Virus genome (UHGV): UHGV-1353844
Length of the DNA: 64,000 nucleotides
From: a virus
Direction: 5' to 3' (one strand)
Shown: positions 47,383 through 56,991 of the stretch, in pieces
Position numbering within the stretch: position 1 is the stretch's first letter
Layout of the letters: each line of letters starts with the position of its first letter
Notes under the pieces: generated by a model
Databases searched by the model: none
The model's input: the letters and a program-made list of their open reading frames with translations, nothing else
Told to the model about the DNA's origin: nothing
Translations under genes and position numbers: made by a program

Positions 47383-47929
47383 TGATTAATTCTCCAGGGC
47401 GGAACCCGTCCAACGCAAGTTTCGTCACAAGAGACGCCAACGTACGTGGTGTGGGGTCAGTAAATACGACCGGAATCGTTCCTTTAAAAGATAAGTGATT
47501 CGGGACTAAGCGAACATCATAAGAATCGAGTTCCTCACTGATAGGCTCGATCATAATGTCGTCTTGGGTCAAATCAATACCGGTCTGAGCAACGATATAG
47601 TCTGCCAGTTCTTGGCTGCTGGTTACTTCGCCTTTCGGTACTGTAACCGGTTCGTCAGCTAAGAACGTTGCCAGGTCAACACGGGTTAAGATGAATTCCT
47701 GGTTCCCTGTAACACCGTTTTTAAAGTCGGCCGCCACTTTCGATTCCAGTCCGTAACGACGGGCTTCGTCTTTCGTCAGTGGTTGCACACCTTTATCGTT
47801 AAAATCGATGTTGTCAGTGGTATAGGATACCCCGAAAACGTAGTTAATACGATCTACCAGAATTTGTTTCGGAGTTTTCGTTAAGTCGACGCGATATGCC
47901 ATGGTTTTCTCACTTAGGTAGCTGGTCAA
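47375..47929 (-). CDS. hypothetical protein
   Basis: 184-aa ORF. Confidence 0.6.
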   Translation of the reverse strand: MTSYLSEKTMAYRVDLTKTPKQILVDRINYVFGVSYTTDNIDFNDKGVQPLTKDEARRYGLESKVAADFKNGVTGNQEFILTRVDLATFLADEPVTVPKGEVTSSQELADYIVAQTGIDLTQDDIMIEPISEELDSYDVRLVPNHLSFKGTIPVVFTDPTPRTLASLVTKLALDGFRPGELINV

Positions 47930-50105
47930 GCGTGAAGCCGTCCAGATCGTTAATTTTCACCTGTTCGTTTAACGTCCAATCGTCAAGCGAAGATTTCACT
48001 TTAACAACCCCGGTAGTCGGCTCGTTAATATCCACCACAACCTGCTGTGTTACTTTCACTCGGATACCCATGTAAATGTTCATCCTGAGTTTGATGTGCT
48101 GTGGCATCGACAGTTCTTTAATAACAGGCGCTGCCGGTAACACAGTGTCGGTGGACATATACTGGTGACGCGTAACTTGCTGTACGCCTAAGAGGGGTTC
48201 AATAATGGTAATCGACCCCTCCCCACTCATAGGGATATCCCCTAAGATAGGACAGAGCGGGTCCATAACGTCGTAAGAATCTGACCCCATTCGTGCAGCA
48301 AAATGTACGGTGTAGGATGACAACTTCGTCATCAGTCGTACCATTGCACGCTGAATCTCAGACTGTGAAATCGTTGCGCGGGTTTCCAGGTTAGTTGCGG
48401 TGTTAAATGCGTCAATAGCAATGTCTTGCCACGTCTCCGCCGAAACCAACGTATAGTCTAACCCAAACGTTTTAAAGAACTCATCGTAGTTACGATAGTT
48501 CAGTTTTAAATCGCAACGATAATCACGGTAATGGTAGTTAAACAGCATCATACCCGCTGCACGGTCAGGAATCTTCCGACGGTTTTGGCTATAACGCCAA
48601 CGACGTCGTTTCTGGGTAATGATTTCATTAACCGTGTCGTAAAGTTCATCAGCACTAAGAATCGTTCCGACGACTTCTGTGTGCGTATCGGTATAATAGT
48701 TAATCAACGCATCGAAACGGTTTTCCCAGCTCGGGATTAAATGTTGTTCCATTTCATCGAATGAAACCCAGCGTTTGATTAACACCCCGAACACGTTGAA
48801 CACAGGAATCTTTTCTAACGCAACGTCAGAATACCCTTTATACGCCGCGTACAAGAACAGCGCCAATAACTCTTTTGAGCTAAGCTTTAAGGTATCCCCG
48901 TTTGTTGGGTTAAGAATCTCGTGGTAAATGTTGTATTTCCCTTTCGCGACGAGATGTACCCATTCGTTAAAGAGGTTATGCAGATACTCGAAGCGCTCAA
49001 TCGCTTCTGGGTCGACTGCTGTAACTTCAATGAGTTTGGTTTTCAGGTTAGGGTATTGCGTTAAACTTAAACGGGTATCTAAGTCTTCCTGATACTCCGG
49101 TTCGTACGCCGGGTTATTGTACGCTAACGCGACTTCCTTCTGGATGATGTCCGTCGTTGTTACAATGTCAAGGTCTCGACCAGAGTCCTTTTCCGTATAG
49201 TTAAGCGATTGCTGATAACCGATCGGTAACGGCGTTAACGTGGAATCGTCATCATCCTTCGGTTCGTGTATTTGCTGCGCAACATTATACCCAACCGCAG
49301 GCATCCCCCAACCTGTCAGTAGCGCATCAATCTGCCAGTCGAAAATCTCCTCTTTCCCTGAGTTACGTTCCCAGTAACGAATATTCCGATAAAGAATGAA
49401 TTTCTGTTTCTGGGTCAAATACGGCATAAACTCGTGAAGTTCTTGGTGTGATGCTAAGAACTCTGTCACGTAAAACGAATGCGTTTCCGTGGTATGCTGT
49501 AAAGAAGAACGAATATACCCGATGATGCCGGGTAACTGCGGATACAGAATACAGTAGAATGCTAACACGAACGCATCGTTGTGAACTTTCCACCCTTCTG
49601 ACATATAGCGAACGTGAGCTGCCCTTATTCTGTCTTCCAATCTCGACATCAGTGACGTCTCTTGCGACTCCACTAATGAACTGTCGTAATAGAGGATAGA
49701 GCAGTCAGCCACACGGATGGCGTAGTTTATATCCACCGGATTAAACACACCCCGGATATAAATCGCGTAGTCAGGATACGTTCTGATCAGCTCCTCAATG
49801 TACCCGCCGTTCGAACGAAATACGTTTGAGGTCTTTTTATGACGGGACAGGTTGGCTGTCGTTAATTCTATCTGCTCTTGCGTGTCGAGCGACGTTATGT
49901 AAATGGGCTTATCCCATTCGTGACGTTGTCCTGCTAAATGCAGGTAGTATCGCCACGTACTTCGGTTATCGGAAACGAAACCGCCGTTCTCGGTTATTGC
50001 CAGATTCATCTGTTGTGCGATTGATTCTGATTTAATAATCAGTGATTTCGCCAACGCGATGTTCTGTTCACGAAATATGTTAAATCTCTGCATCGGAGAC
50101 CCCAA
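47910..50105 (-). CDS. large hypothetical protein; ORF-track start is TTG, probable ATG start at 50093
   Basis: 731-aa ORF, no Walker A. Confidence 0.65.
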   Translation of the reverse strand: MGSPMQRFNIFREQNIALAKSLIIKSESIAQQMNLAITENGGFVSDNRSTWRYYLHLAGQRHEWDKPIYITSLDTQEQIELTTANLSRHKKTSNVFRSNGGYIEELIRTYPDYAIYIRGVFNPVDINYAIRVADCSILYYDSSLVESQETSLMSRLEDRIRAAHVRYMSEGWKVHNDAFVLAFYCILYPQLPGIIGYIRSSLQHTTETHSFYVTEFLASHQELHEFMPYLTQKQKFILYRNIRYWERNSGKEEIFDWQIDALLTGWGMPAVGYNVAQQIHEPKDDDDSTLTPLPIGYQQSLNYTEKDSGRDLDIVTTTDIIQKEVALAYNNPAYEPEYQEDLDTRLSLTQYPNLKTKLIEVTAVDPEAIERFEYLHNLFNEWVHLVAKGKYNIYHEILNPTNGDTLKLSSKELLALFLYAAYKGYSDVALEKIPVFNVFGVLIKRWVSFDEMEQHLIPSWENRFDALINYYTDTHTEVVGTILSADELYDTVNEIITQKRRRWRYSQNRRKIPDRAAGMMLFNYHYRDYRCDLKLNYRNYDEFFKTFGLDYTLVSAETWQDIAIDAFNTATNLETRATISQSEIQRAMVRLMTKLSSYTVHFAARMGSDSYDVMDPLCPILGDIPMSGEGSITIIEPLLGVQQVTRHQYMSTDTVLPAAPVIKELSMPQHIKLRMNIYMGIRVKVTQQVVVDINEPTTGVVKVKSSLDDWTLNEQVKINDLDGFTLDQLPK

Positions 50106-52822
50106 TGGACGATATTAGTAAATTAACGGGCGACCCCGCCGTAGCTGCAATTCTTCGTAAAACTACGGGCCCAGCACCTCAGCAACAACGCGGTACGCGT
50201 AGCGAGGGTGGTTCTACGCCAACACGTCAAGAACTCACGGCAATTGCGAGTTCACGTATTCGTACTATCAAAAATGCGGAACGTATCTTTGATGCGTTAC
50301 CTGAACTCGAAACAATCGTTACTATTGCAACTTCGAGCCTGCTATCAACAAAAGACTTAATCAACACGACGTTGATTTACGACAACATCGCGGACATCCC
50401 CATTGATCTGCGTAACGCACTACTGACACCGACCCGTGATTATCACGATAACATTCGTCAGCTACCTAAGAAATTATATCAGTGGATTTACGATGCGTTA
50501 AAAACCAAAGGCGCAAGTCCAGTGATGATAATCTCGGATACCGGCTTCGACCAATTATTCGGTCTGAATACAAAGGTCGCTACTGAATCTGTTCGTCGTT
50601 CCCAAACGGCGTTCTTCGAACAACAGCTTGGTATTCTCGGGCCTATTAATGCGCCGAAAGAAGGGCAGCGAGTTGGTGTAGAATCAATTCTCAACCGTTT
50701 ACACGGAGCCGTTACTGGTCCTCAAACGTTGAAAATCGATTTCGGTAAACACGATTCGATGTTCTCGGATAAATTCCAGATGGAAATCACGATTACCGAT
50801 AACCCGCGCATTACCATGCTACCGGATTTGTATCGTCGTATTGCGCATGAGAACGCACGTACGGGATTGTACGGGCAATTAGAGCAAGCCGCATATGAAA
50901 AGCCGTCTACACCAAACGGTGGCAGTCCGTTCGACCCTAACCAATCTTTCGATGACCGTCAGCGTGACGCTGCTGAAAAAGGGTTCATTAACTTGGGTGA
51001 TTTAAACGAGGCGTATAAGTCAACACCGAAAACACAAACGTACGGTGATATTCCTATTATCTCAATGGATGAGAATAACAAAATCGAATACATCGAACGT
51101 TTACTGCCCGCAGAGTCAACGCTGCCACTGGTAATTGGCGATGACGTTCGTAACCCTATCGGTTATCTGACCATCGTAGATGACATGGGTAACTTCATCA
51201 ATGCTCGCTCCTCGCTGTACGGCGATGCGAACTTTATGAACTACCTGAATAACGACGGGATGACGGACAGCATCATTAACCGTTCTAATCTGGGCTTAGG
51301 GAACACTTCTCGTATTACCCCGGAAATCGCCAACCGTTTAAGTGCACGTTGTGGTGAAATCGCTGAAAACGAATTTGCCCGCGCATTAAGTCAGGCACTA
51401 GGTGGCGCAGAAATCAGCATGAATATTACCGAAACTTTCGGTCGTATTCTGTTAGCGCGTCATCTCGCAAAACGTCATACTCAGGTGGTTTACATTCCGG
51501 TTAATAACCTTTGCTATTTTGCAACCGACTTTAACGAAGATGGTATCGGGGTTTCTATTACTGAGCGCTCCTTTATTATCTCTACTGTCAGGATGGCGCT
51601 GCTGTTCGCAACGATGAACTCATCTGTACTGAACTCGGCACGTCACATGCAGTACGACATTGAGCTGTCACCAGATGATGCAAACGGTCAAAAAACCGTT
51701 GACCAAGTTAAATCAGATATCCTTAATTCCTACAATCGACGCCTGCCGATGTGGGGCGATATCAACGACGCCTGGTCAATGGGGGCTAACGCGGGGATTG
51801 CCTTTAACGTAACGGGTAACGATTACTACGCCAGCCACAAAGTGTCTGTGTCTGATACCACGCCGGAGTATAAAGTTCCTGATCAACAAATCGACGAGAA
51901 CCTGTTACGCCGTACATGTCACATCGCGTGTGTTGATCCTGACCTTGTACTTACCCCGGAGAACCTGGAGTTTGCTTCTCAGATTTATTCTAAATCGCTG
52001 TTGGTCACTCAACAGATTGTGAAGAAACAGGAAATCCTCTCAACCCCGCTTACGCGCTACGTTACAAACAGTCTGCAAGCTTCACCGAAACTGCAAGCAG
52101 AACTCATCCGTATTATCGTTGAGTATATCCGTGAGCAGAATCCGGATGTATCTAGCGAAGAGATGACAAAACAAACGTCAGAGTATATGGCGAAGTTTAT
52201 CAACGGTATGAAGGTCACCTTGCCACCGCCTGATACTTCTGCAACAGCATCTCAAGCTGATCTCTTCGATAAACGCTATGAATTTATCGAGAAACTTGCA
52301 GATCTGGTGGTCACGGATGACATTGCTAATATGCTTCAGAACGAAGGTATTGAAATGTCACCTGATGACCTCAAGACGATGGTTAAGACCTTCTACGCGC
52401 GCAACTGGCTACGTAATCAGGGCATCGAAACCGATCTGTTTGATTTGATCTACGATGAAGATAAACGTGGTGAAAACGTCAAGATGATTTCTGATGAGAT
52501 TGCAGCGGCATCGAAGACGCTGATTCAGTTAGCAAAACGTGCGACAGGTAAAGTTCAGACGTTAGCAAAAGCAGCCGATCTGAATCCTGAAGACGCCAAT
52601 AACTTCGGCGGTGGCGGCGACTTCGGTGGCGGCACTGAAGACGATGGTGGCTTAGGAGGCGATGAGGACTTAGGTGGTGACGATCTGGGCGGTGATGAAG
52701 ACTTGGACATGACCGATGATGAAACGACGGAAACCGATACGACGACGGAAGAAGACGTTTCAACTGAAGGCACGGACGAGACGGATACCGGCGCAGATGA
52801 CAACACCGATGAAACTCTCTAA
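50105..52822 (+). CDS. large protein with acidic Gly/Asp/Thr-rich C-terminal tail (portal candidate, speculative)
   Basis: 905-aa ORF, SD ggag; antisense ORFs 52479-52829 are shadows of the acidic repeat region. Confidence 0.7.
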   Translation: MDDISKLTGDPAVAAILRKTTGPAPQQQRGTRSEGGSTPTRQELTAIASSRIRTIKNAERIFDALPELETIVTIATSSLLSTKDLINTTLIYDNIADIPIDLRNALLTPTRDYHDNIRQLPKKLYQWIYDALKTKGASPVMIISDTGFDQLFGLNTKVATESVRRSQTAFFEQQLGILGPINAPKEGQRVGVESILNRLHGAVTGPQTLKIDFGKHDSMFSDKFQMEITITDNPRITMLPDLYRRIAHENARTGLYGQLEQAAYEKPSTPNGGSPFDPNQSFDDRQRDAAEKGFINLGDLNEAYKSTPKTQTYGDIPIISMDENNKIEYIERLLPAESTLPLVIGDDVRNPIGYLTIVDDMGNFINARSSLYGDANFMNYLNNDGMTDSIINRSNLGLGNTSRITPEIANRLSARCGEIAENEFARALSQALGGAEISMNITETFGRILLARHLAKRHTQVVYIPVNNLCYFATDFNEDGIGVSITERSFIISTVRMALLFATMNSSVLNSARHMQYDIELSPDDANGQKTVDQVKSDILNSYNRRLPMWGDINDAWSMGANAGIAFNVTGNDYYASHKVSVSDTTPEYKVPDQQIDENLLRRTCHIACVDPDLVLTPENLEFASQIYSKSLLVTQQIVKKQEILSTPLTRYVTNSLQASPKLQAELIRIIVEYIREQNPDVSSEEMTKQTSEYMAKFINGMKVTLPPPDTSATASQADLFDKRYEFIEKLADLVVTDDIANMLQNEGIEMSPDDLKTMVKTFYARNWLRNQGIETDLFDLIYDEDKRGENVKMISDEIAAASKTLIQLAKRATGKVQTLAKAADLNPEDANNFGGGGDFGGGTEDDGGLGGDEDLGGDDLGGDEDLDMTDDETTETDTTTEEDVSTEGTDETDTGADDNTDETL

Positions 52823-52847
52823 ATAGCAAAAAAAATAATTCGAGCTT

Positions 52848-52888
52848 ACTCCGACCCTTCTGGGGTCGGGGTAGCTTTCTTTTTTCAC
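52848..52888. terminator. bidirectional terminator
   Basis: ccgacccc-ttct-ggggtcgg with A-run before and T-run after. Confidence 0.65.
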
Positions 52889-53184
52889 CATGCTATTTCG
52901 TCTTTATTGATAGCAAGGTCTAACATAATTCCTATTGCTAAAGGATCGTTATCGTACGCCATCAGTTTCGCTAACAGTTCTGGCTGACCTGATTTCTTAA
53001 CGGCTTTCAGTAGTTCGTTACGGGCATTATAGTAGATAAGCCAGTATCTACCGTGATTGACTTTGGTGTTTGAGTGTTCTAATAAATAGCGATTAAACTC
53101 CATGGTTGCTTCGGTTTCAGGTAATTCGAAGCGAAAACGTGGACTACGTTCGTAGTTTACATTAATAACAACATATTTAATCAT
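52885..53184 (-). CDS. hypothetical protein
   Basis: 99-aa ORF. Confidence 0.55.
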   Translation of the reverse strand: MIKYVVINVNYERSPRFRFELPETEATMEFNRYLLEHSNTKVNHGRYWLIYYNARNELLKAVKKSGQPELLAKLMAYDNDPLAIGIMLDLAINKDEIAW

Positions 53185-53193
53185 TTCCTCATT

Positions 53194-53221
53194 CCCTCAC
53201 TATAGTGGGCGGCTATAATAA
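53194..53221 (-). promoter_or_regulatory. promoter-like motif variant (ACTATAGTGAGGG in minus orientation)
   Basis: matches the TAG-GxGAG end of the other sites. Confidence 0.3.
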
Positions 53222-53227
53222 ATTGGG

Positions 53228-53262
53228 GAATAAAAAAGAAGGAGGAGAGCCGAAGCTCTCCT
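53228..53262 (-). terminator. rho-independent terminator
   Basis: ggagagc-cgaa-gctctcc. Confidence 0.6.
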
Positions 53263-53272
53263 TGTGTGGTGA

Positions 53273-53527
53273 TTAACCAATAGCAGCGATACGTTCTTCG
53301 AGTAACAGTTTCTCTGCGGTCATAACTTCTAACTCCGCAGTGATAAGTTTTACCTGCTTCTCGTCGATAAATAATGGACGTTTCTCAATAAGTTGTTCAC
53401 GCTCGTGAATACGGACGCGAAGTTGATATAACTCCAAAGAAAGTTGTTGCTTTAAACGCTCCACGGTATCAATTACGTTTAGCTCTATCTTGGCTTTACT
53501 GTAATCAACATAAGCGGCCATACGCAC
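53273..53527 (-). CDS. small coiled-coil protein
   Basis: 84-aa ORF. Confidence 0.5.
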   Translation of the reverse strand: MRMAAYVDYSKAKIELNVIDTVERLKQQLSLELYQLRVRIHEREQLIEKRPLFIDEKQVKLITAELEVMTAEKLLLEERIAAIG

Positions 53528-53565: not shown

Positions 53566-55176
53566 TTAATAACGAACTGGTGCAGTCACGTCACCTGTGC
53601 TCAGCAGCGAATAAACATGAGACGGGGTCTTAAGTTTAATGAACGCTTCTGGTGCTTTCTGGTTAATGACTTCGTAGATTGAAACAATCGGTTCGAAGCT
53701 GTTACCAAACGATGAGATTTCCACGATATGGCGATCGTTAGCGGATTGATAATCTGCTTGCAGAGAAATCGTGTACGTTACCTGAGACAGTTCAATAGCT
53801 TTATTATCGCAGGTCAGACGAATGTGCAGCTTACGCAGAGAACGCGCGATCAGCAGGAACATTTCACGAAAATAATCCGCAGACTTGCTCACACCATTTT
53901 CACCGATGGTACGACCATACACTGTCTCTTTAAAGTAGGTCATGTCATCCAGGCAGCATTCCAACTGTACGAATTTCGTACCCGGAACGTCTTTACCGTA
54001 AGCAGATGCCACGGAGATGGCGTTGTGAACCAGCACGGTTAATGTTGCAATGAAACGACGAGTAAACGCTGAACATTCGCTACGATACGTTTCATTCTCA
54101 TCAGATTTGGTGAGGAAGTACATTAACAAACGTTGTGCAAGGTCACGCAGTCTGAAGACGTCATTAGAAACACGCTCCATCAGCTTTTCAATATCGTCAA
54201 TATCACGTACGGTATCGAGATCGTCGATAATCTGGCGAACCGAACTATAAAACTCCTGGAGATACACCGCAGAAGTTTCAGTCTGTGCCATCGGATACAG
54301 ACGGTATTCGCTTTCGACTTTCACCATGATACCCGCATCGTCATACGAGCAATATTGTTTGTCGTTATCTTCAACCAGTTCACTAACCTTATCACCCCAG
54401 TCACGATGTTCTGCATACACAGAATTCTTGACGCGTGTGTTAGCTTCTTTCGGCGAAACAACGTTTTGCTGAATCTTTTCTTTCAGCTCGTGATCTAAAT
54501 AGTCTTCCACAATTTCTACCCGCAAAATGTCATGGTGAGGACGGTTAGCACGTTGAATGATATCATCCATCGTTTCCTTATTCATATCCACAGGCTTGCT
54601 TTTGTTCATCACTTCCTGCGGAACAGTCGGCTGAATAATAGCAGGCTGTGTTTGCGTTTGCGGTTGAGTTTGCGGAGTACCACCGAATACCGGAGCGGAT
54701 TGTACAGGTTGCACTGTTACACCGGCCGGAGTATAGCTGGCCATCGGTACAGAAGAACCCTGAATCGGTGCAGTTGGTTGCGCATTCTGCGAATTCTGAA
54801 TACCGAAGTTAACCGGTTCAGTACGCACACCGAATCCACCCTGCCCAGCACGACGTGCTTCTTCTGCAAGCTGATTCGCCAGCACAAACGCTTTCTCTAA
54901 CGCGCTATGAATGTCCGGCTGCAACGGAGTCAGACCTAAACCTAACAGACGGCTATAGAGCGTTGCCTTAAAGGTTTCGATAACCGCAACGTTAGTTTGG
55001 TCACTAGGGCGACGGTTTTGCAGATACCAGTTACCCACAATACACGCTGCATTAACAAACGGATCTTCTTTTATCCCCTTCGCGTTCATCGCGTCGACGA
55101 GATAGTTCAAAAGCTGATCCTGTTTAGCCATAAAAACTTTCAAGATAAATTCACGAGTTTCGCTGTAGCTTGCCAT
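53566..55176 (-). CDS. hypothetical protein with Q/P/T-rich linker (structural candidate)
   Basis: 536-aa ORF; antisense ORFs 53728-55182 are shadows. Confidence 0.65.
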   Translation of the reverse strand: MASYSETREFILKVFMAKQDQLLNYLVDAMNAKGIKEDPFVNAACIVGNWYLQNRRPSDQTNVAVIETFKATLYSRLLGLGLTPLQPDIHSALEKAFVLANQLAEEARRAGQGGFGVRTEPVNFGIQNSQNAQPTAPIQGSSVPMASYTPAGVTVQPVQSAPVFGGTPQTQPQTQTQPAIIQPTVPQEVMNKSKPVDMNKETMDDIIQRANRPHHDILRVEIVEDYLDHELKEKIQQNVVSPKEANTRVKNSVYAEHRDWGDKVSELVEDNDKQYCSYDDAGIMVKVESEYRLYPMAQTETSAVYLQEFYSSVRQIIDDLDTVRDIDDIEKLMERVSNDVFRLRDLAQRLLMYFLTKSDENETYRSECSAFTRRFIATLTVLVHNAISVASAYGKDVPGTKFVQLECCLDDMTYFKETVYGRTIGENGVSKSADYFREMFLLIARSLRKLHIRLTCDNKAIELSQVTYTISLQADYQSANDRHIVEISSFGNSFEPIVSIYEVINQKAPEAFIKLKTPSHVYSLLSTGDVTAPVRY

Positions 55177-55215
55177 TCTTAATTCTCCTAATAGGTCTTA
55201 ATACGTCTTTCGTGG

Positions 55216-56991
55216 TTAACGGCCAATCTTCGCAATATCTTCTTCGGTTGCTTGGATTAACTCGTCAAGTTTTGGATTACGAACCATCACTAACTGACGG
55301 CTAGTTTTCATGTACGGGTTAAGGATACCCCATTTGAACGGGGACGATTTCGGAATGTAATAAACGTTACCGCACTCCAGATGCGATGCAGAAGCGTGTT
55401 TCGTACGGTCATTAAGGTTAACCGTTTTACCGCCTTTGCTGTTACGTTTAGATTCCGTTTCAGTTTGACTAATCGCGTGTGTGGATACTCCTAGTACCAT
55501 GGACTCTGTTGATGCGTTGAAATAACTTACACCGCCGTTACCAGTGATATTACGCAACACCAGACTCGTGACAATTTCTTTATTGAGTGCGCTACGAATC
55601 ATATTCGCGCAGGATTCTGGCGAACGATTCTCCGTTTGTCCCAGATGGAAACGAATAGCCGCTACCGTTGGTGTAAACCCACGGTCACCTAACAGTAAGT
55701 AGTCAGTTACGGTTAAACGTTTTCCGTACATCGACGGAATGTCACCCTGTTTAGTCAAACGGGTACGTACCATCAGTTTCGTTGCATACCAGAAGAAATC
55801 AAACATATCCATGTCGTCTGGAATGTCAGGATCGGTCATCTTCAGTTCTGCACGGAACGTTGAGTTAACGTAGCGATCGCATTCAGTATAGTGTTTCGCC
55901 ATACTGTGCGCTAACTCAATATCGGAAGGTTTCAGTCCTACGATACTTCTTCCCAGAATCTCACGCCAAATCGGAGCAGAGTTCAGGTTAGCAATATCGT
56001 CTTCCATCGCTAACTCGTTAATTGCGGTAAACAGCGGCGGGAGCGGCGTGACGTTACCGTTCTTAATGGATTGTTTACTGCAATAGTAGTGAGCGGCTTT
56101 GAAGAACGCAGCAATTGCGGCCAGCAACAAATGCTCGTTTTGATCCCAACCAACTTTATCCACGTTCGGCAATGCTTCTGCGGGTACGACAACCGCGTAC
56201 ATTATCGAACGGTTATATTTCGATTCACCGGAACTGATTACAACTTTCTCGTTGAGATCGAGTTCTGGGATCTTAAACGATGGATAAATTTCTACGTCAA
56301 CACCAGTATAGCGTTTAATCGCTTCTTTAAATCCGTAACGTCCGAACAACCAATACATTAACGGTTTCTCGTCAGTATCAGGATGTGTTGCGTTCTTCGC
56401 TTTGAACAGGTTTTTGGTTCCTGGTAAGAATAGCTCCTCTTTTTTACCGTTGACTAACACACGGACAGGTTGCTTACAGAATTTCAACGAGGCTTTACGT
56501 TTAAAGTCAAAGTTAACAAATACCCCACCGTGTTCGCGACAGATACCTGGCTGGTGAATAACCGGTGCAACGTGATACGTCGTACCGTAATAGTTCATTA
56601 AACCACCACGACGGATAAAGGGTAAGTTAATCGGTCTTGAGATCGGTCGAGAATCTCCTGGAATACGGAATGTTGACATGACCATATACGCATCAGTATT
56701 CGCAATGGACATCACACCACGACGTCTATCCATTCTGCTGCTCTCAGAACGAGACAGCTTATAGATGAACGTTTCAAACGGTGACATTAACCGTACACCT
56801 AATACAGCCAGCCCTTCAGGAACACGCGGATTATCAACAGGATGATAATCCAGCTCACGTTTCAAGATAATCTGAACACGCTCGTGTATACCGTCTTTGG
56901 CCTGTGTATAACCGACACCTTCCGCAATCGCTCGGTTAAAGGGTACTATTTTGCCATCCTCTTTAAGCTTTCTGATTGCATCTTTAAACAC
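55216..56991 (-). CDS. hypothetical protein (structural/morphogenesis candidate)
   Basis: 591-aa ORF. Confidence 0.65.
   Translation of the reverse strand: MFKDAIRKLKEDGKIVPFNRAIAEGVGYTQAKDGIHERVQIILKRELDYHPVDNPRVPEGLAVLGVRLMSPFETFIYKLSRSESSRMDRRRGVMSIANTDAYMVMSTFRIPGDSRPISRPINLPFIRRGGLMNYYGTTYHVAPVIHQPGICREHGGVFVNFDFKRKASLKFCKQPVRVLVNGKKEELFLPGTKNLFKAKNATHPDTDEKPLMYWLFGRYGFKEAIKRYTGVDVEIYPSFKIPELDLNEKVVISSGESKYNRSIMYAVVVPAEALPNVDKVGWDQNEHLLLAAIAAFFKAAHYYCSKQSIKNGNVTPLPPLFTAINELAMEDDIANLNSAPIWREILGRSIVGLKPSDIELAHSMAKHYTECDRYVNSTFRAELKMTDPDIPDDMDMFDFFWYATKLMVRTRLTKQGDIPSMYGKRLTVTDYLLLGDRGFTPTVAAIRFHLGQTENRSPESCANMIRSALNKEIVTSLVLRNITGNGGVSYFNASTESMVLGVSTHAISQTETESKRNSKGGKTVNLNDRTKHASASHLECGNVYYIPKSSPFKWGILNPYMKTSRQLVMVRNPKLDELIQATEEDIAKIGR

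What the first reader, a model, noticed from the sequence alone, without database searches (positions are those of the whole stretch)
50105..52822. 905-aa protein with acidic low-complexity C-terminal tail
The last ~80 residues are a Gly/Asp/Glu/Thr-rich low-complexity tail (GGGGDFGGGTEDDGGLGGDEDLGGDDLGGDEDLDMTDDETTETDTTTEEDVSTEGTDETDTGADDNTDETL). The size fits a jumbo-phage portal; the acidic tail could interact with DNA-binding or basic inner-body proteins, or be removed by a prohead protease.
Basis: inference. Interest (0 to 1): 0.45.

Follow-up and report, generated by a model that had tools for sequence, protein, structure and literature searches.

The report
Jumbo-phage portal protein with acidic tail
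This gene encodes the portal protein (the DNA entry and exit ring of the capsid) of an SPN3US/phiKZ-type giant phage; its very acidic, floppy 83-residue tail is real and shared by the whole family but has never been studied, so the protein is ordinary and only the tail's function is open.

Summary
ORF 50105-52822 (+) encodes 905 aa. Residues 823-905 have no K/R, 39% D/E and net charge -32, the most acidic stretch in the window.

The portal interpretation is supported.
- The protein is 72% identical to Salmonella phage SPN3US gp81, the experimentally defined 12-copy portal.
- It matches three solved dodecameric jumbo-phage portal chains by sequence, including phiKZ gp129 (9XPE) and a chain labelled 'Portal Protein gp36' (11ed) that I take to be Goslar gp36.
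- Its AF2 model hits the phiKZ portal (Foldseek E 4e-20).
- Gene order matches SPN3US gp73-gp94.

The suggestion that a prohead protease removes the tail is not supported. In SPN3US the protease cuts the N-terminus (ATE-161, AQE-254). Both sites are conserved here (ATE-161, AHE-249), and the tail has no A-x-E motif.

The tail is predicted disordered. It is unmodelled in the Goslar structure. It occurs in essentially all relatives (net -24 to -53), conserved in charge but not in sequence, and usually ends in a hydrophobic residue. T4 gp20 has a shorter version.

It probably forms a retained polyanionic brush inside the capsid at the channel mouth. The abundant internal proteins of SPN3US are basic once matured, so they are plausible partners. 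That function is inferred, not shown.

This is a new member of a known family, of low to moderate interest.

The parts
50105..52822 (+). Portal protein gene (905 aa plus stop); ortholog of SPN3US gp81, phiKZ gp129 and Goslar gp36
   Evidence: PHROG 3004, E=0, full length. 72% identity to SPN3US gp81. PDB sequence hits 9xpe_M at 1.6e-43, 11ed_J at 1.1e-28 and 36za at 3.5e-23. Foldseek hit to 9xpe_M, E 4.1e-20, probability 1.0.
50095..50099 (+). Shine-Dalgarno-like GGAGA, 5 nt upstream of the ATG, inside an 11-bp divergent intergenic spacer (50094-50104)
   Evidence: Read directly from the sequence. SPN3US has the same 11-bp spacing.
50105..50851 (+). Predicted N-terminal propeptide region, aa 1-249. 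It contains a confidently folded helical domain (aa 41-151, pLDDT about 80-88) flanked by low-confidence linkers.
   Evidence: Aligns to the SPN3US gp81 propeptide 1-254 (PMC10052503). pLDDT profile.
50579..50587 (+). A159-T160-E161, predicted prohead-protease site (identical to SPN3US ATE-161)
   Evidence: E161 is conserved in at least 90% of 45 sequences. It lies in a low-pLDDT linker, residues 155-178. The site was found experimentally in SPN3US.
50843..50851 (+). A247-H248-E249, predicted maturation cleavage site (aligns to SPN3US AQE-254); predicted mature N-terminus is N250
   Evidence: A247 and E249 are invariant in 45 homologs. The mature protein 250-905 is 72.4 kDa, against 72.3 kDa for SPN3US.
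50852..52570 (+). Mature portal body, aa 250-822 (wing, stem/clip, crown). By alignment to Goslar gp36, stem/clip is roughly aa 488-610 and the crown starts at roughly aa 709. The last helix is 785-823.
   Evidence: searches (secondary structure; fold match), (domain limits transferred from Goslar gp36; approximate, inferred).
52571..52819 (+). Acidic intrinsically disordered C-terminal tail, aa 823-905 (net -32, no K/R)
   Evidence: pLDDT 30-35 with no secondary structure. The equivalent segment is unmodelled in Goslar gp36, which is built to residue 923 of 969. Family-wide feature. dN/dS 0.10. Charge is preserved while the sequence varies.
52604..52702 (+). Gly/Asp-rich half of the tail, aa 834-866, with two Phe-Gly patches (NNF834GGGG, GDF840GGG) and three LGGD(E/D)D-like hexapeptides
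   Evidence: The x-x-F-G-G context recurs across the family but is only 1.45-fold enriched over shuffles.
52703..52819 (+). Thr/Glu/Asp-rich half of the tail, aa 867-905, ending in ...DDNTDETL with a hydrophobic C-terminal residue
   Evidence: The last residue is hydrophobic in 68% of close and 38% of distant relatives, against a 9-11% background. T4 gp20 ends ...EQEDF.
52846..52884 (+). Terminator-like hairpin (13 bp, 7 G-C) followed by a T-run, between the portal gene and the convergent 99-aa gene
   Evidence: 1 found, against 0.3 expected in shuffles.
47910..50093 (-). Divergently transcribed partner gene (727 aa from the ATG at 50093); ortholog of SPN3US gp82 and phiKZ gp128. This is conserved context, not part of the portal.
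   Evidence: PHROG 3222, E 3.6e-282. The same divergent pairing occurs in SPN3US, phiKZ, EL and RAY.

Best explanation
The gene encodes the portal protein of an uncultivated SPN3US-like (Seoulvirus-related, phiKZ-type) jumbo myovirus. Twelve copies form the ring at the unique capsid vertex through which DNA is packaged and ejected. By homology, the precursor (100 kDa) is cut by the phage's A-x-E-specific prohead protease after E161 and E249, giving a 72.4 kDa mature protein (N250-L905) that keeps its C-terminus.

The C-terminal 83 residues follow the last crown helix. They are intrinsically disordered and project from the crown into the capsid lumen around the inner mouth of the channel. Twelve tails would carry about -384 charges.

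Selection acts on the tail's charge, length and hydrophobic tip, not on its sequence. My preferred mechanism is inferred, not shown. The tail would be a flexible DNA-like polyanionic tether whose hydrophobic C-terminal residue helps it dock onto partners. After the maturation cleavages it would bind the abundant internal 'ejection' proteins, which become basic at that step, and hold them near the channel. It would also repel packaged DNA from the crown.

Sub-confidences: portal identity about 0.97; N-terminal rather than C-terminal processing about 0.8; tail disordered and inside the capsid about 0.85; tether for basic internal proteins as the main role about 0.35. The overall figure of 0.6 weighs the near-certain identity against the inferred tail function.
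For: Identity:
- PHROG 3004 'head and packaging' match, E=0, full length.
- 256 phage records match, all jumbo phages, and some are annotated as portal.
- 72% identity over 847 aa to SPN3US gp81, which mass spectrometry and genetics define as the 12-copy head portal.
- Sequence matches to solved 12-chain portals: phiKZ gp129 (9XPE) and 36za, plus 11ed 'Portal Protein gp36'.
- The AF2 model hits 9xpe_M at E 4e-20, and nearly all weaker hits are portals.
- Gene order matches SPN3US gp73-gp94, including the major capsid protein at 78% identity.

Processing:
- ATE-161 is identical, and AHE-249 aligns to AQE-254.
- A247 and E249 are invariant, and E161 is at least 90% conserved.
- All four A-x-E motifs lie in residues 161-291, with none in 292-905.
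- The MCP maturation site is conserved as VAQE|YYSNKD.

Tail:
- pLDDT 30-35 with no secondary structure.
- Goslar gp36 is built only to residue 923 of 969, and its crown sits at the top (capsid side) of the ring.
- All 53 close homologs have tails of 64-113 aa with net charge -24 to -53.
- 113 of 136 distant representatives have a net charge of -15 or lower in the last 60 aa.
- phiKZ, EL, RAY and SPN3US tails carry -22 to -28.
- dN/dS is 0.10.
- Near-identical relatives concentrate their substitutions in the tail but keep the net charge at -32, including a D846G/G849D swap.
- The hydrophobic last residue is enriched.

Partners: mature SPN3US gp53 and gp54 (more than 600 copies each) have pI 9.2 and 9.5 after losing propeptides with net charge -15 and -26.
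Against: - No experiment or structure shows where the tail goes or what it binds.
- No published peptide covers it. It has no K/R, so trypsin yields nothing detectable. Retention in the virion therefore rests on the absence of A-x-E motifs and on a gel-mass argument, which is weak for an acidic protein.
- In the prohead the E proteins still carry acidic propeptides, so an electrostatic tether could act only after cleavage.
- The inner body was not seen in the recent phiKZ and Goslar asymmetric maps, so any portal-to-inner-body contact is unsupported structurally.
- The AF2 model has only moderate confidence (mean pLDDT 60, pTM 0.48).
- The Phe-Gly patch is only weakly enriched.
- The enrichment statistics treat related sequences as independent.
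Confidence: 0.6

Rival explanations
1. The tail works purely on DNA. It would be an electrostatic brush or gasket at the inner channel mouth that repels packaged DNA. It would help sense head filling, keep the last-packaged DNA end positioned, or prevent DNA from sticking to the crown. This would be analogous to the mildly acidic C-terminal barrel of the P22 portal, which is unfolded in procapsids and is proposed to straighten through repulsion by DNA.
For: Location after the crown on the capsid side. About -384 charges per ring. Charge, not sequence, is conserved. The P22 barrel precedent is in PMC5290284. T4 gp20 also carries a short acidic end.
Against: A pure charge brush does not explain the strong enrichment of a hydrophobic last residue, which suggests docking to a protein. 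The tail is predicted disordered, not helical like the P22 barrel. There is no direct data.
Confidence: 0.25
2. The tail acts at assembly. As an 'entropic bristle', it would keep portal rings soluble and prevent premature binding of DNA or aberrant aggregation. Alternatively its hydrophobic tip would recruit scaffold or core proteins when the portal nucleates the prohead. It would have no role in the mature head.
For: Portals nucleate prohead assembly (general knowledge, restated in PMC10052503). Composition is conserved without sequence conservation, which is typical of bristle-type disordered regions. The hydrophobic tip could bind a scaffold such as the SPN3US scaffold candidate gp22.
Against: No interaction data. 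The tail length and charge (up to -53 per chain) are larger than expected for solubility alone. Nothing shows a basic scaffold partner.
Confidence: 0.15
3. One reading: the prohead protease clips off the acidic tail during maturation, so it is a C-terminal propeptide.
For: The tail lies inside the prohead where the protease acts. It has four [S/A/G]-x-E sequences (E845, E854, E865, E888) that would fit the looser phiKZ-type motif. MS data do not cover the region. In SPN3US the protease itself does lose a C-terminal propeptide.
Against: The SPN3US protease logo is strictly A-x-E, and all nine substrates other than the protease itself lose N-terminal pieces. The tail here has no A-x-E. The observed SPN3US mature portal mass was assigned as 72.3 kDa, which includes the tail. 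Part of the low-complexity region is ordered in the mature Goslar virion, up to residue 923, within its Ser/Asp-rich stretch. A-x-E is not significantly depleted or enriched in tails (23 observed, 30.9 expected).
Confidence: 0.1
4. The protein is not the portal but another large virion structural protein. Most database records call it only 'virion structural protein'.
For: Most GenBank records use the generic name. There is no Pfam portal family hit.
Against: Three independent cryo-EM studies and SPN3US proteomics and genetics assign this family to the dodecameric portal. The fold search returns portals.
Confidence: 0.02

Closest known systems
Salmonella phage SPN3US gp81 (portal; Seoulvirus)
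   Same: 72% identity over 847 aa and the same length class (905 vs 913 aa). The gene neighbourhood is identical, including the 11-bp divergent spacer. Protease sites are conserved (ATE-161; AHE-249 vs AQE-254). The acidic tail is the same kind (87 aa, net -28), with a Gly/Asp half followed by a Thr/Glu half.
   Different: The tail sequence is not alignable beyond about residue 834. The second cleavage site has H instead of Q at the variable position. The closest annotated relatives reach only about 75% identity (Erwinia phages Asesino and phiEaH2), so this is a distinct phage, known otherwise only from metagenomic contigs.
Pseudomonas phage phiKZ gp129 (PDB 9XPE) and Goslar gp36 (described in the Goslar preprint; PDB chain 11ed_J 'Portal Protein gp36', 969 aa, is presumably the same protein)
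   Same: Same family (E 1.6e-43 and 1.1e-28), dodecameric T4-like portal fold with wing, stem, clip and crown. Both have acidic G/D/E/T/S-rich C-terminal ends. The last 46 residues of Goslar gp36 are not modelled, and only 633 of 896 residues of phiKZ gp129 are in the deposited chain.
   Different: Only about 17-25% identity. The phiKZ tail is shorter (55 aa, net -22). In Goslar the N-terminal region (from residue 5) is part of the wing in the virion, whereas SPN3US proteomics indicates cleavage of the first 254 residues.
Phage T4 gp20 portal
   Same: Same overall fold, as stated for phiKZ gp129 and Goslar gp36; weak Foldseek hits here. The C-terminus is on the capsid side. T4 gp20 also ends in an acidic stretch with a hydrophobic or aromatic last residue (...QDPDQEQEDF, net -11 in the last 30 aa).
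   Different: T4 gp20 is 524 aa, has no long N-terminal propeptide and is not processed. Its acidic end is about a third as long, contains K/R and is far less charged. There is no detectable sequence similarity by PSI-BLAST.
P22 gp1 portal C-terminal barrel
   Same: A C-terminal extension beyond the crown that points into the capsid, is acidic on its surface, is unfolded without DNA, and is proposed to respond to packaged DNA by repulsion (PMC5290284).
   Different: The P22 barrel is a long helical coiled coil and only mildly acidic. The tail here has no predicted helix after residue 823 and is low-complexity.
Acidic C-terminal tails with a hydrophobic tip in DNA-binding proteins (E. coli SSB ...DDDIPF; T7 gp2.5 and gp4). 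Recalled from general knowledge; a lead only.
   Same: A disordered acidic tail ending in a hydrophobic residue that docks on partner proteins and mimics DNA. Some relatives end ...DDDIPL...DDIPL or ...DFDLPV.
   Different: This protein ends ...DETL, with no I-P-F. It has no OB-fold or DNA-binding context, and no partner is known.

Membership tests
phiKZ gp129 / SPN3US gp81 / Goslar gp36-type jumbo-phage portal (PHROG 3004) | Full-length sequence homology to experimentally assigned members | tested here: met
   PHROG 3004, E=0, residues 2-902. 72% identity to SPN3US gp81. PDB chains 9xpe_M, 11ed_J and 36za at E 1.6e-43 to 3.5e-23. 1,124 family representatives.
phiKZ gp129 / SPN3US gp81 / Goslar gp36-type jumbo-phage portal (PHROG 3004) | Portal fold (wing, stem, clip, crown) | tested here: met
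   The AF2 model (mean pLDDT 60) hits the phiKZ portal 9xpe_M at Foldseek E 4.1e-20, probability 1.0. Lower-ranked hits are almost all portals: Pa223, SU10, T4, crAss001 and G20c. Model confidence is moderate.
phiKZ gp129 / SPN3US gp81 / Goslar gp36-type jumbo-phage portal (PHROG 3004) | Dodecameric ring at the unique capsid vertex; present in virions at 12 copies | not testable with these tools
   Shown for homologs only. Only monomer prediction is available here.
phiKZ gp129 / SPN3US gp81 / Goslar gp36-type jumbo-phage portal (PHROG 3004) | Long N-terminal propeptide with prohead-protease (A-x-E) cleavage sites | tested here: met
   ATE-161 and AHE-249 are present and conserved. Actual cleavage is not testable here.
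phiKZ gp129 / SPN3US gp81 / Goslar gp36-type jumbo-phage portal (PHROG 3004) | Conserved genomic context: divergent gp82/gp128-like gene and a nearby major capsid protein | tested here: met
phiKZ gp129 / SPN3US gp81 / Goslar gp36-type jumbo-phage portal (PHROG 3004) | Acidic low-complexity C-terminal tail after the crown (a feature I propose as family-wide, not a published criterion) | tested here: met
P22-type portal barrel | Long alpha-helical coiled-coil barrel C-terminal to the crown | tested here: not met
   There is no predicted helix after residue 823, and residues 820-905 have pLDDT 30-35. The similarity is functional analogy only.
C-terminal propeptide removed by prohead protease | Protease recognition motif (A-x-E in SPN3US-type phages) at or within the segment | tested here: not met
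   Zero A-x-E in residues 292-905. There are four looser [SAG]-x-E motifs in the tail. Cleavage itself is not testable here.
RTX / beta-roll Ca-binding Gly-Asp repeats | Tandem nonapeptides GGxGxDxUx; Pfam HemolysinCabind match | tested here: not met
   No Pfam hit at E<=1 other than two insignificant unrelated ones. The repeat unit is about 6 aa (LGGDED), and only one GGxGxD occurs, by inspection.
SSB-Ct-like acidic tip | C-terminal D-D-D-I-P-F-type motif | tested here: not met
   The query ends DDNTDETL. Only some relatives end ...DDDIPL. A hydrophobic last residue is enriched, but the specific motif is absent.

The most novel reading that the evidence does not exclude
The acidic tail plus hydrophobic tip is an unrecognised, conserved functional module of T4-type and jumbo-phage portals. 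It would be a DNA-mimicking tether, expanded about three-fold in phiKZ/SPN3US-type phages. It would capture the basic, injected internal proteins (E and inner-body proteins, possibly the virion RNA polymerase) at the inner mouth of the channel once their acidic propeptides are cleaved. This would position them to leave the capsid ahead of or along with the DNA. If so, it would give a physical explanation for how nucleus-forming phages organise and order the ejection of their protein payload.
Probability: 0.2. Interest if true: 0.55.

Novelty: new member of a known kind. Interest (0 to 1): 0.25.

Why it matters
The gene itself only adds one more member to a well-established portal family that now has solved structures, so annotation can safely read 'portal protein'. 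The useful residue is the tail. Every member carries a 55-113-residue polyanionic disordered extension that structural papers leave unmodelled, and the papers I checked do not discuss it. Selection visibly preserves its charge and its hydrophobic end. It sits exactly where DNA and several thousand injected proteins must pass. If it organises those proteins or gates DNA, it is relevant to how nucleus-forming jumbo phages deliver their early proteins. It would also be a simple target for mutagenesis in the SPN3US genetic system.

Tried and rejected
- Pfam: no significant family, so I relied on PHROGs, PDB sequences and the fold search.
- DNA tandem repeats under the tail: none, so recent slippage is rejected.
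- Phe-Gly patch as a conserved motif: present in 110 of 137 proteins, but only 1.9 observed against 1.3 expected from shuffles, and equally frequent per protein elsewhere. I do not treat it as established.
- Depletion of A-x-E in tails as a sign of protease avoidance: 23 observed against 30.9 expected, which is not convincing.
- Low synonymous divergence of the tail (dS 0.37 against 1.5 in the core) looked like a nucleotide-level constraint. It is part of a wider mosaic of high-identity tracts, so I reject it as tail-specific.
- Direct peptide evidence for the C-terminus in SPN3US supplements: none found. The Thomas et al. 2012 phiKZ proteolysis paper is not held, and the phiKZ atlas has no held supplement, so the modelled residue range of 9XPE could not be read.
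- Literature search for a described function of acidic portal tails in jumbo phages: nothing. 'Acidic' does not occur in the Goslar structure preprint.
- RTX-like Ca-binding repeats and an SSB-Ct motif: considered and rejected (see the membership test).
- Minus-strand ORFs over the tail (52479-52829 and 52555-52806): the translation is R/H/S/L-rich nonsense, typical of a shadow frame of the GAT/GAC-rich strand.
Full report
**Observation.** The window has an ATG-initiated ORF at 50105-52822 (+) of 905 codons. A GGAGA ribosome-binding site lies 5 nt upstream, and a strong terminator-like hairpin follows the stop at 52846-52874.

The compositional break is slightly earlier. After K822 there are 83 residues with no Lys or Arg. 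They contain 25% Asp, 20% Gly, 17% Thr and 13% Glu, for a net charge of -32. Given the composition of the rest of the protein, the chance of at least 32 acidic residues in 83 is 5.9e-9. This is the most acidic 83-residue stretch in any long open frame of the whole 64-kb window; the runner-up is -18. No DNA tandem repeat underlies it.

**What the protein is.** There is no significant Pfam match. The protein matches PHROG 3004 ('head and packaging, virion structural protein') end to end with E=0. It also matches 256 phage genome records, all jumbo phages of Pseudomonas, Erwinia, Salmonella, Serratia, Aeromonas and other hosts. The best annotated relatives are Erwinia phages Asesino and phiEaH2 (75%) and Salmonella phage SPN3US (72% over 847 residues).

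- SPN3US gp81 is the experimentally assigned portal. It is a head protein at 12 copies and is processed by the prohead protease gp245 (PMC5694885 and PMC10052503).
- The query also matches, by sequence alone, three solved jumbo-phage portal chains. These are phiKZ gp129 (9XPE, 12 chains, E 1.6e-43), a chain labelled 'Portal Protein gp36' (11ed, E 1.1e-28) and a 917-aa 'virion structural protein' (36za, 12 chains).
- The structure papers describe phiKZ gp129 and Goslar gp36 as T4-gp20-like dodecameric portals with wing, stem, clip and crown. I take 11ed to be Goslar gp36 because the name and the 969-aa length match, but no tool output links the PDB code to the preprint.
- An AlphaFold2 model built on a 45-sequence alignment has moderate confidence (mean pLDDT 60). 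Its only significant PDB match is the phiKZ portal (Foldseek E 4.1e-20, probability 1.0). The weak hits below it are nearly all portals.
- Gene order is identical to SPN3US gp73-gp94. It includes the divergent gp82 ortholog separated by the same 11-bp spacer, and a major capsid protein 78% identical to gp75.

The family is large, with 1,124 representatives at 50% clustering. Near-identical copies of this protein occur only on metagenomic contigs of up to 222-226 kb. The window therefore comes from an SPN3US-like jumbo phage that is not in the annotated phage collection.

**Processing.** The available evidence points the other way.
- In SPN3US, gp245 cuts after A-x-E. It removes N-terminal propeptides from eight substrates, and the longest is the portal's: ATE-161 and AQE-254, taking 100.2 kDa to 72.3 kDa.
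- Here ATE-161 is identical, and AQE-254 aligns with AHE-249 (RRIAHE|NAR).
- A247 and E249 are invariant, and E161 is at least 90% conserved, in 45 homologs.
- E161 lies in a low-confidence linker of the model, and E249 lies at the end of helix 239-253, directly before the low-confidence stretch 250-291.
- All four A-x-E motifs of the protein lie between residues 161 and 291. None lies in 292-905, so none is in the tail.
- The capsid protein's maturation site is also conserved, so the same protease specificity is expected in this phage.
- The predicted mature protein N250-L905 is 72.4 kDa. Without the tail it would be 64.0 kDa.

There are caveats. No published peptide covers the tail, which has no tryptic sites. 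Gel masses of acidic proteins are unreliable. The tail does contain four sites of the looser phiKZ-type [S/A/G]-x-E motif. I rate removal of the tail at about 0.1.

**Anatomy and evolution of the tail.**
- In the model the last helix is 785-823. Residues 820-905 have pLDDT 30-35 and no secondary structure.
- In Goslar the crown (residues 778-923 of 969) sits at the top, capsid-facing side of the ring. The last 46 residues (FGGGDDFGDTDFDTETMEETSTEETTT...) are not modelled.
- Only 633 of 896 residues of phiKZ gp129 are in the deposited chain.
- All 53 close full-length homologs (44-99% identity) carry a tail of 64-113 residues after the last internal K/R, with net charge -24 to -53.
- Among 136 distant full-length representatives (23-40% identity), 113 have a net charge of -15 or lower in the last 60 residues, with a median of -20. 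The exceptions are mostly longer proteins or have Lys-containing mixed-charge ends.
- phiKZ, EL, RAY and SPN3US have tails of -22 to -28.
- The sequences are not alignable between subfamilies: Gly/Asp repeats in Erwinia phages, Thr/Glu runs in SPN3US, Goslar and this phage, and Glu-rich runs elsewhere.
- Against a 91%-identical relative, the tail has dN/dS of 0.10, compared with 0.02 for the core and 0.10 for the propeptide.
- Two 99%-identical relatives place 4 of 12 and 6 of 10 of their differences in the tail (P = 0.02 and 9e-5). The net charge nevertheless stays at -32, including a D846G plus G849D swap. Selection therefore acts on charge and composition rather than on sequence.
- The final residue is hydrophobic in 68% of close and 38% of distant relatives, against 9-11% inside the tails. 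The caveat is that related sequences are not independent.
- T4 gp20, the nearest structural relative outside the family, ends ...EEESKEARFQDPDQEQEDF, with net -11 in its last 30 residues and a terminal Phe. The jumbo-phage tail therefore looks like an expansion of an older trait.
- A Phe-Gly patch near the start of the tail recurs (GGFGG, DDFGG) but is only 1.45-fold over shuffles. I do not rely on it.

**Mechanism.**
- Shown: the protein's identity, the conserved N-terminal sites, and a disordered, charge-conserved tail attached to the capsid-side crown.
- Inferred: twelve retained tails form a brush of about -384 charges around the inner mouth of the channel. For scale, an 83-residue chain has a contour length of about 30 nm, and the Goslar channel top is about 7.4 nm wide.

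Two electrostatic targets exist inside the head. One is the DNA. The other is the abundant internal 'E' proteins. I computed that mature SPN3US gp53 and gp54 (more than 600 copies each) are basic, with pI 9.2 and 9.5 and net charge +7 and +10. Their cleaved propeptides are very acidic, at -15 and -26.

After the protease step, the portal tails are therefore a fixed polyanion facing more than a thousand newly basic proteins. The enriched hydrophobic tip suggests docking onto a protein rather than repulsion alone. I therefore favour a tether for basic internal proteins at the channel mouth (about 0.35). The alternatives are a pure DNA-repelling or sensing brush analogous to the P22 barrel (PMC5290284; about 0.25), an assembly-stage bristle or scaffold hook (about 0.15), and removal by the protease (about 0.1). 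The remainder is no specific function.

Against any inner-body contact, neither recent asymmetric map (phiKZ, Goslar) shows an inner body at all.

**Comparison and novelty.** The protein is a clear member of the SPN3US gp81 / phiKZ gp129 / Goslar gp36 portal family. Every defining feature I could test is met, and oligomeric state and virion presence can only be inferred. It is not a P22-type barrel (no helix), not an RTX-like repeat, and not an SSB-Ct motif.

The tail is family-wide. The two structure papers (phiKZ atlas, Goslar preprint) and the three SPN3US papers I searched do not discuss it in the passages I retrieved. A specific literature search found nothing.

The finding is therefore a new member of a known kind. 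The portal call is right and ordinary. The tail is a genuine but modest open question that is easy to test in the SPN3US genetic system. Interest 0.25.

Noticed in passing
window 49800-50400 and 52350-53320 (vs L007): Nucleotide identity to a 91%-protein-identical metagenomic relative is mosaic. It is 95-99% across the 5' ends of the two divergent genes and their 11-bp spacer, and 87-98% across the portal tail plus the downstream 99-aa gene. The portal core is 75-85%, and identity drops to 52-70% beyond 53400. This could be recombination tracts, or embedded promoters and regulatory sequence inside coding DNA.
   Followed up: partly
window 50091-50107: The portal ATG (50105) and the ATG of the divergent 727-aa gene (50093, minus strand) are only 11 bp apart ('cggagacccca'). 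The spacer holds a GGAG for one gene and a GGGG on the other strand. Promoters for both genes must lie inside each other's coding region. The tight divergent pairing (11-35 bp) is conserved in SPN3US, phiKZ, EL and RAY.
   Followed up: partly
window 47910-50093 (-): The divergent neighbour (PHROG 3222, unknown function) is the ortholog of SPN3US gp82. gp82 behaves as a tail protein in tailless-mutant proteomics (461 vs 6 PSMs). The phiKZ ortholog gp128 is annotated 'structural head protein' in GenBank, so the annotations conflict.
   Followed up: partly
window 50105-50851 (aa 1-249); Goslar gp36 residues 5-519: The 'propeptide' contains a confidently folded helical domain (aa 41-151, pLDDT 80-88). 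In the Goslar virion structure the wing is modelled from residue 5, and SPN3US MS still finds many propeptide peptides in heads. The N-terminal piece may therefore stay bound after cleavage, or be cleaved only in some lineages.
   Followed up: no
L005 (SPN3US 53606-56220; gp53, gp54): The high-abundance ejection proteins switch charge on maturation. Their propeptides have net -15 and -26 (pI 4.1-4.4), and the mature parts have net +7 and +10 (pI 9.2-9.5). The acidic propeptides may mask DNA-binding surfaces until the protease acts.
   Followed up: partly
window 52846-52884: A 13-bp G+C-rich hairpin followed by CTTTCTTTTT sits in the 62-bp gap between the convergent portal gene and the 99-aa gene (52885-53184, minus strand). 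It is a likely intrinsic terminator.
   Followed up: no
window 52479-52829 (-) and 52555-52806 (-): Two minus-strand ORFs (116 and 83 aa) overlap the tail-coding DNA. Their translation is R/H/S/L-rich with no homolog context, and they look like shadow frames of the GAT/GAC/GGT-rich coding strand.
   Followed up: partly
P0059-P0065 (Salmonella phages SPFM1, 6, 7, 8, 9, 12, 20): Several SPFM phage records carry portal-region proteins of 512-828 aa. Two of them (P0060 from SPFM20 and P0064 from SPFM6) match the query in 35 and 24 short stretches. This suggests frameshift-ridden assemblies of the portal gene in those records.
   Followed up: no
window 55216-56991 (-): The 591-aa ORF three genes downstream of the portal matches PHROG 2943 'polymerase' (E 3e-170). 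It corresponds to SPN3US gp77, which relatives annotate as an RNA polymerase beta-type subunit. It sits between the portal and capsid genes.
   Followed up: no
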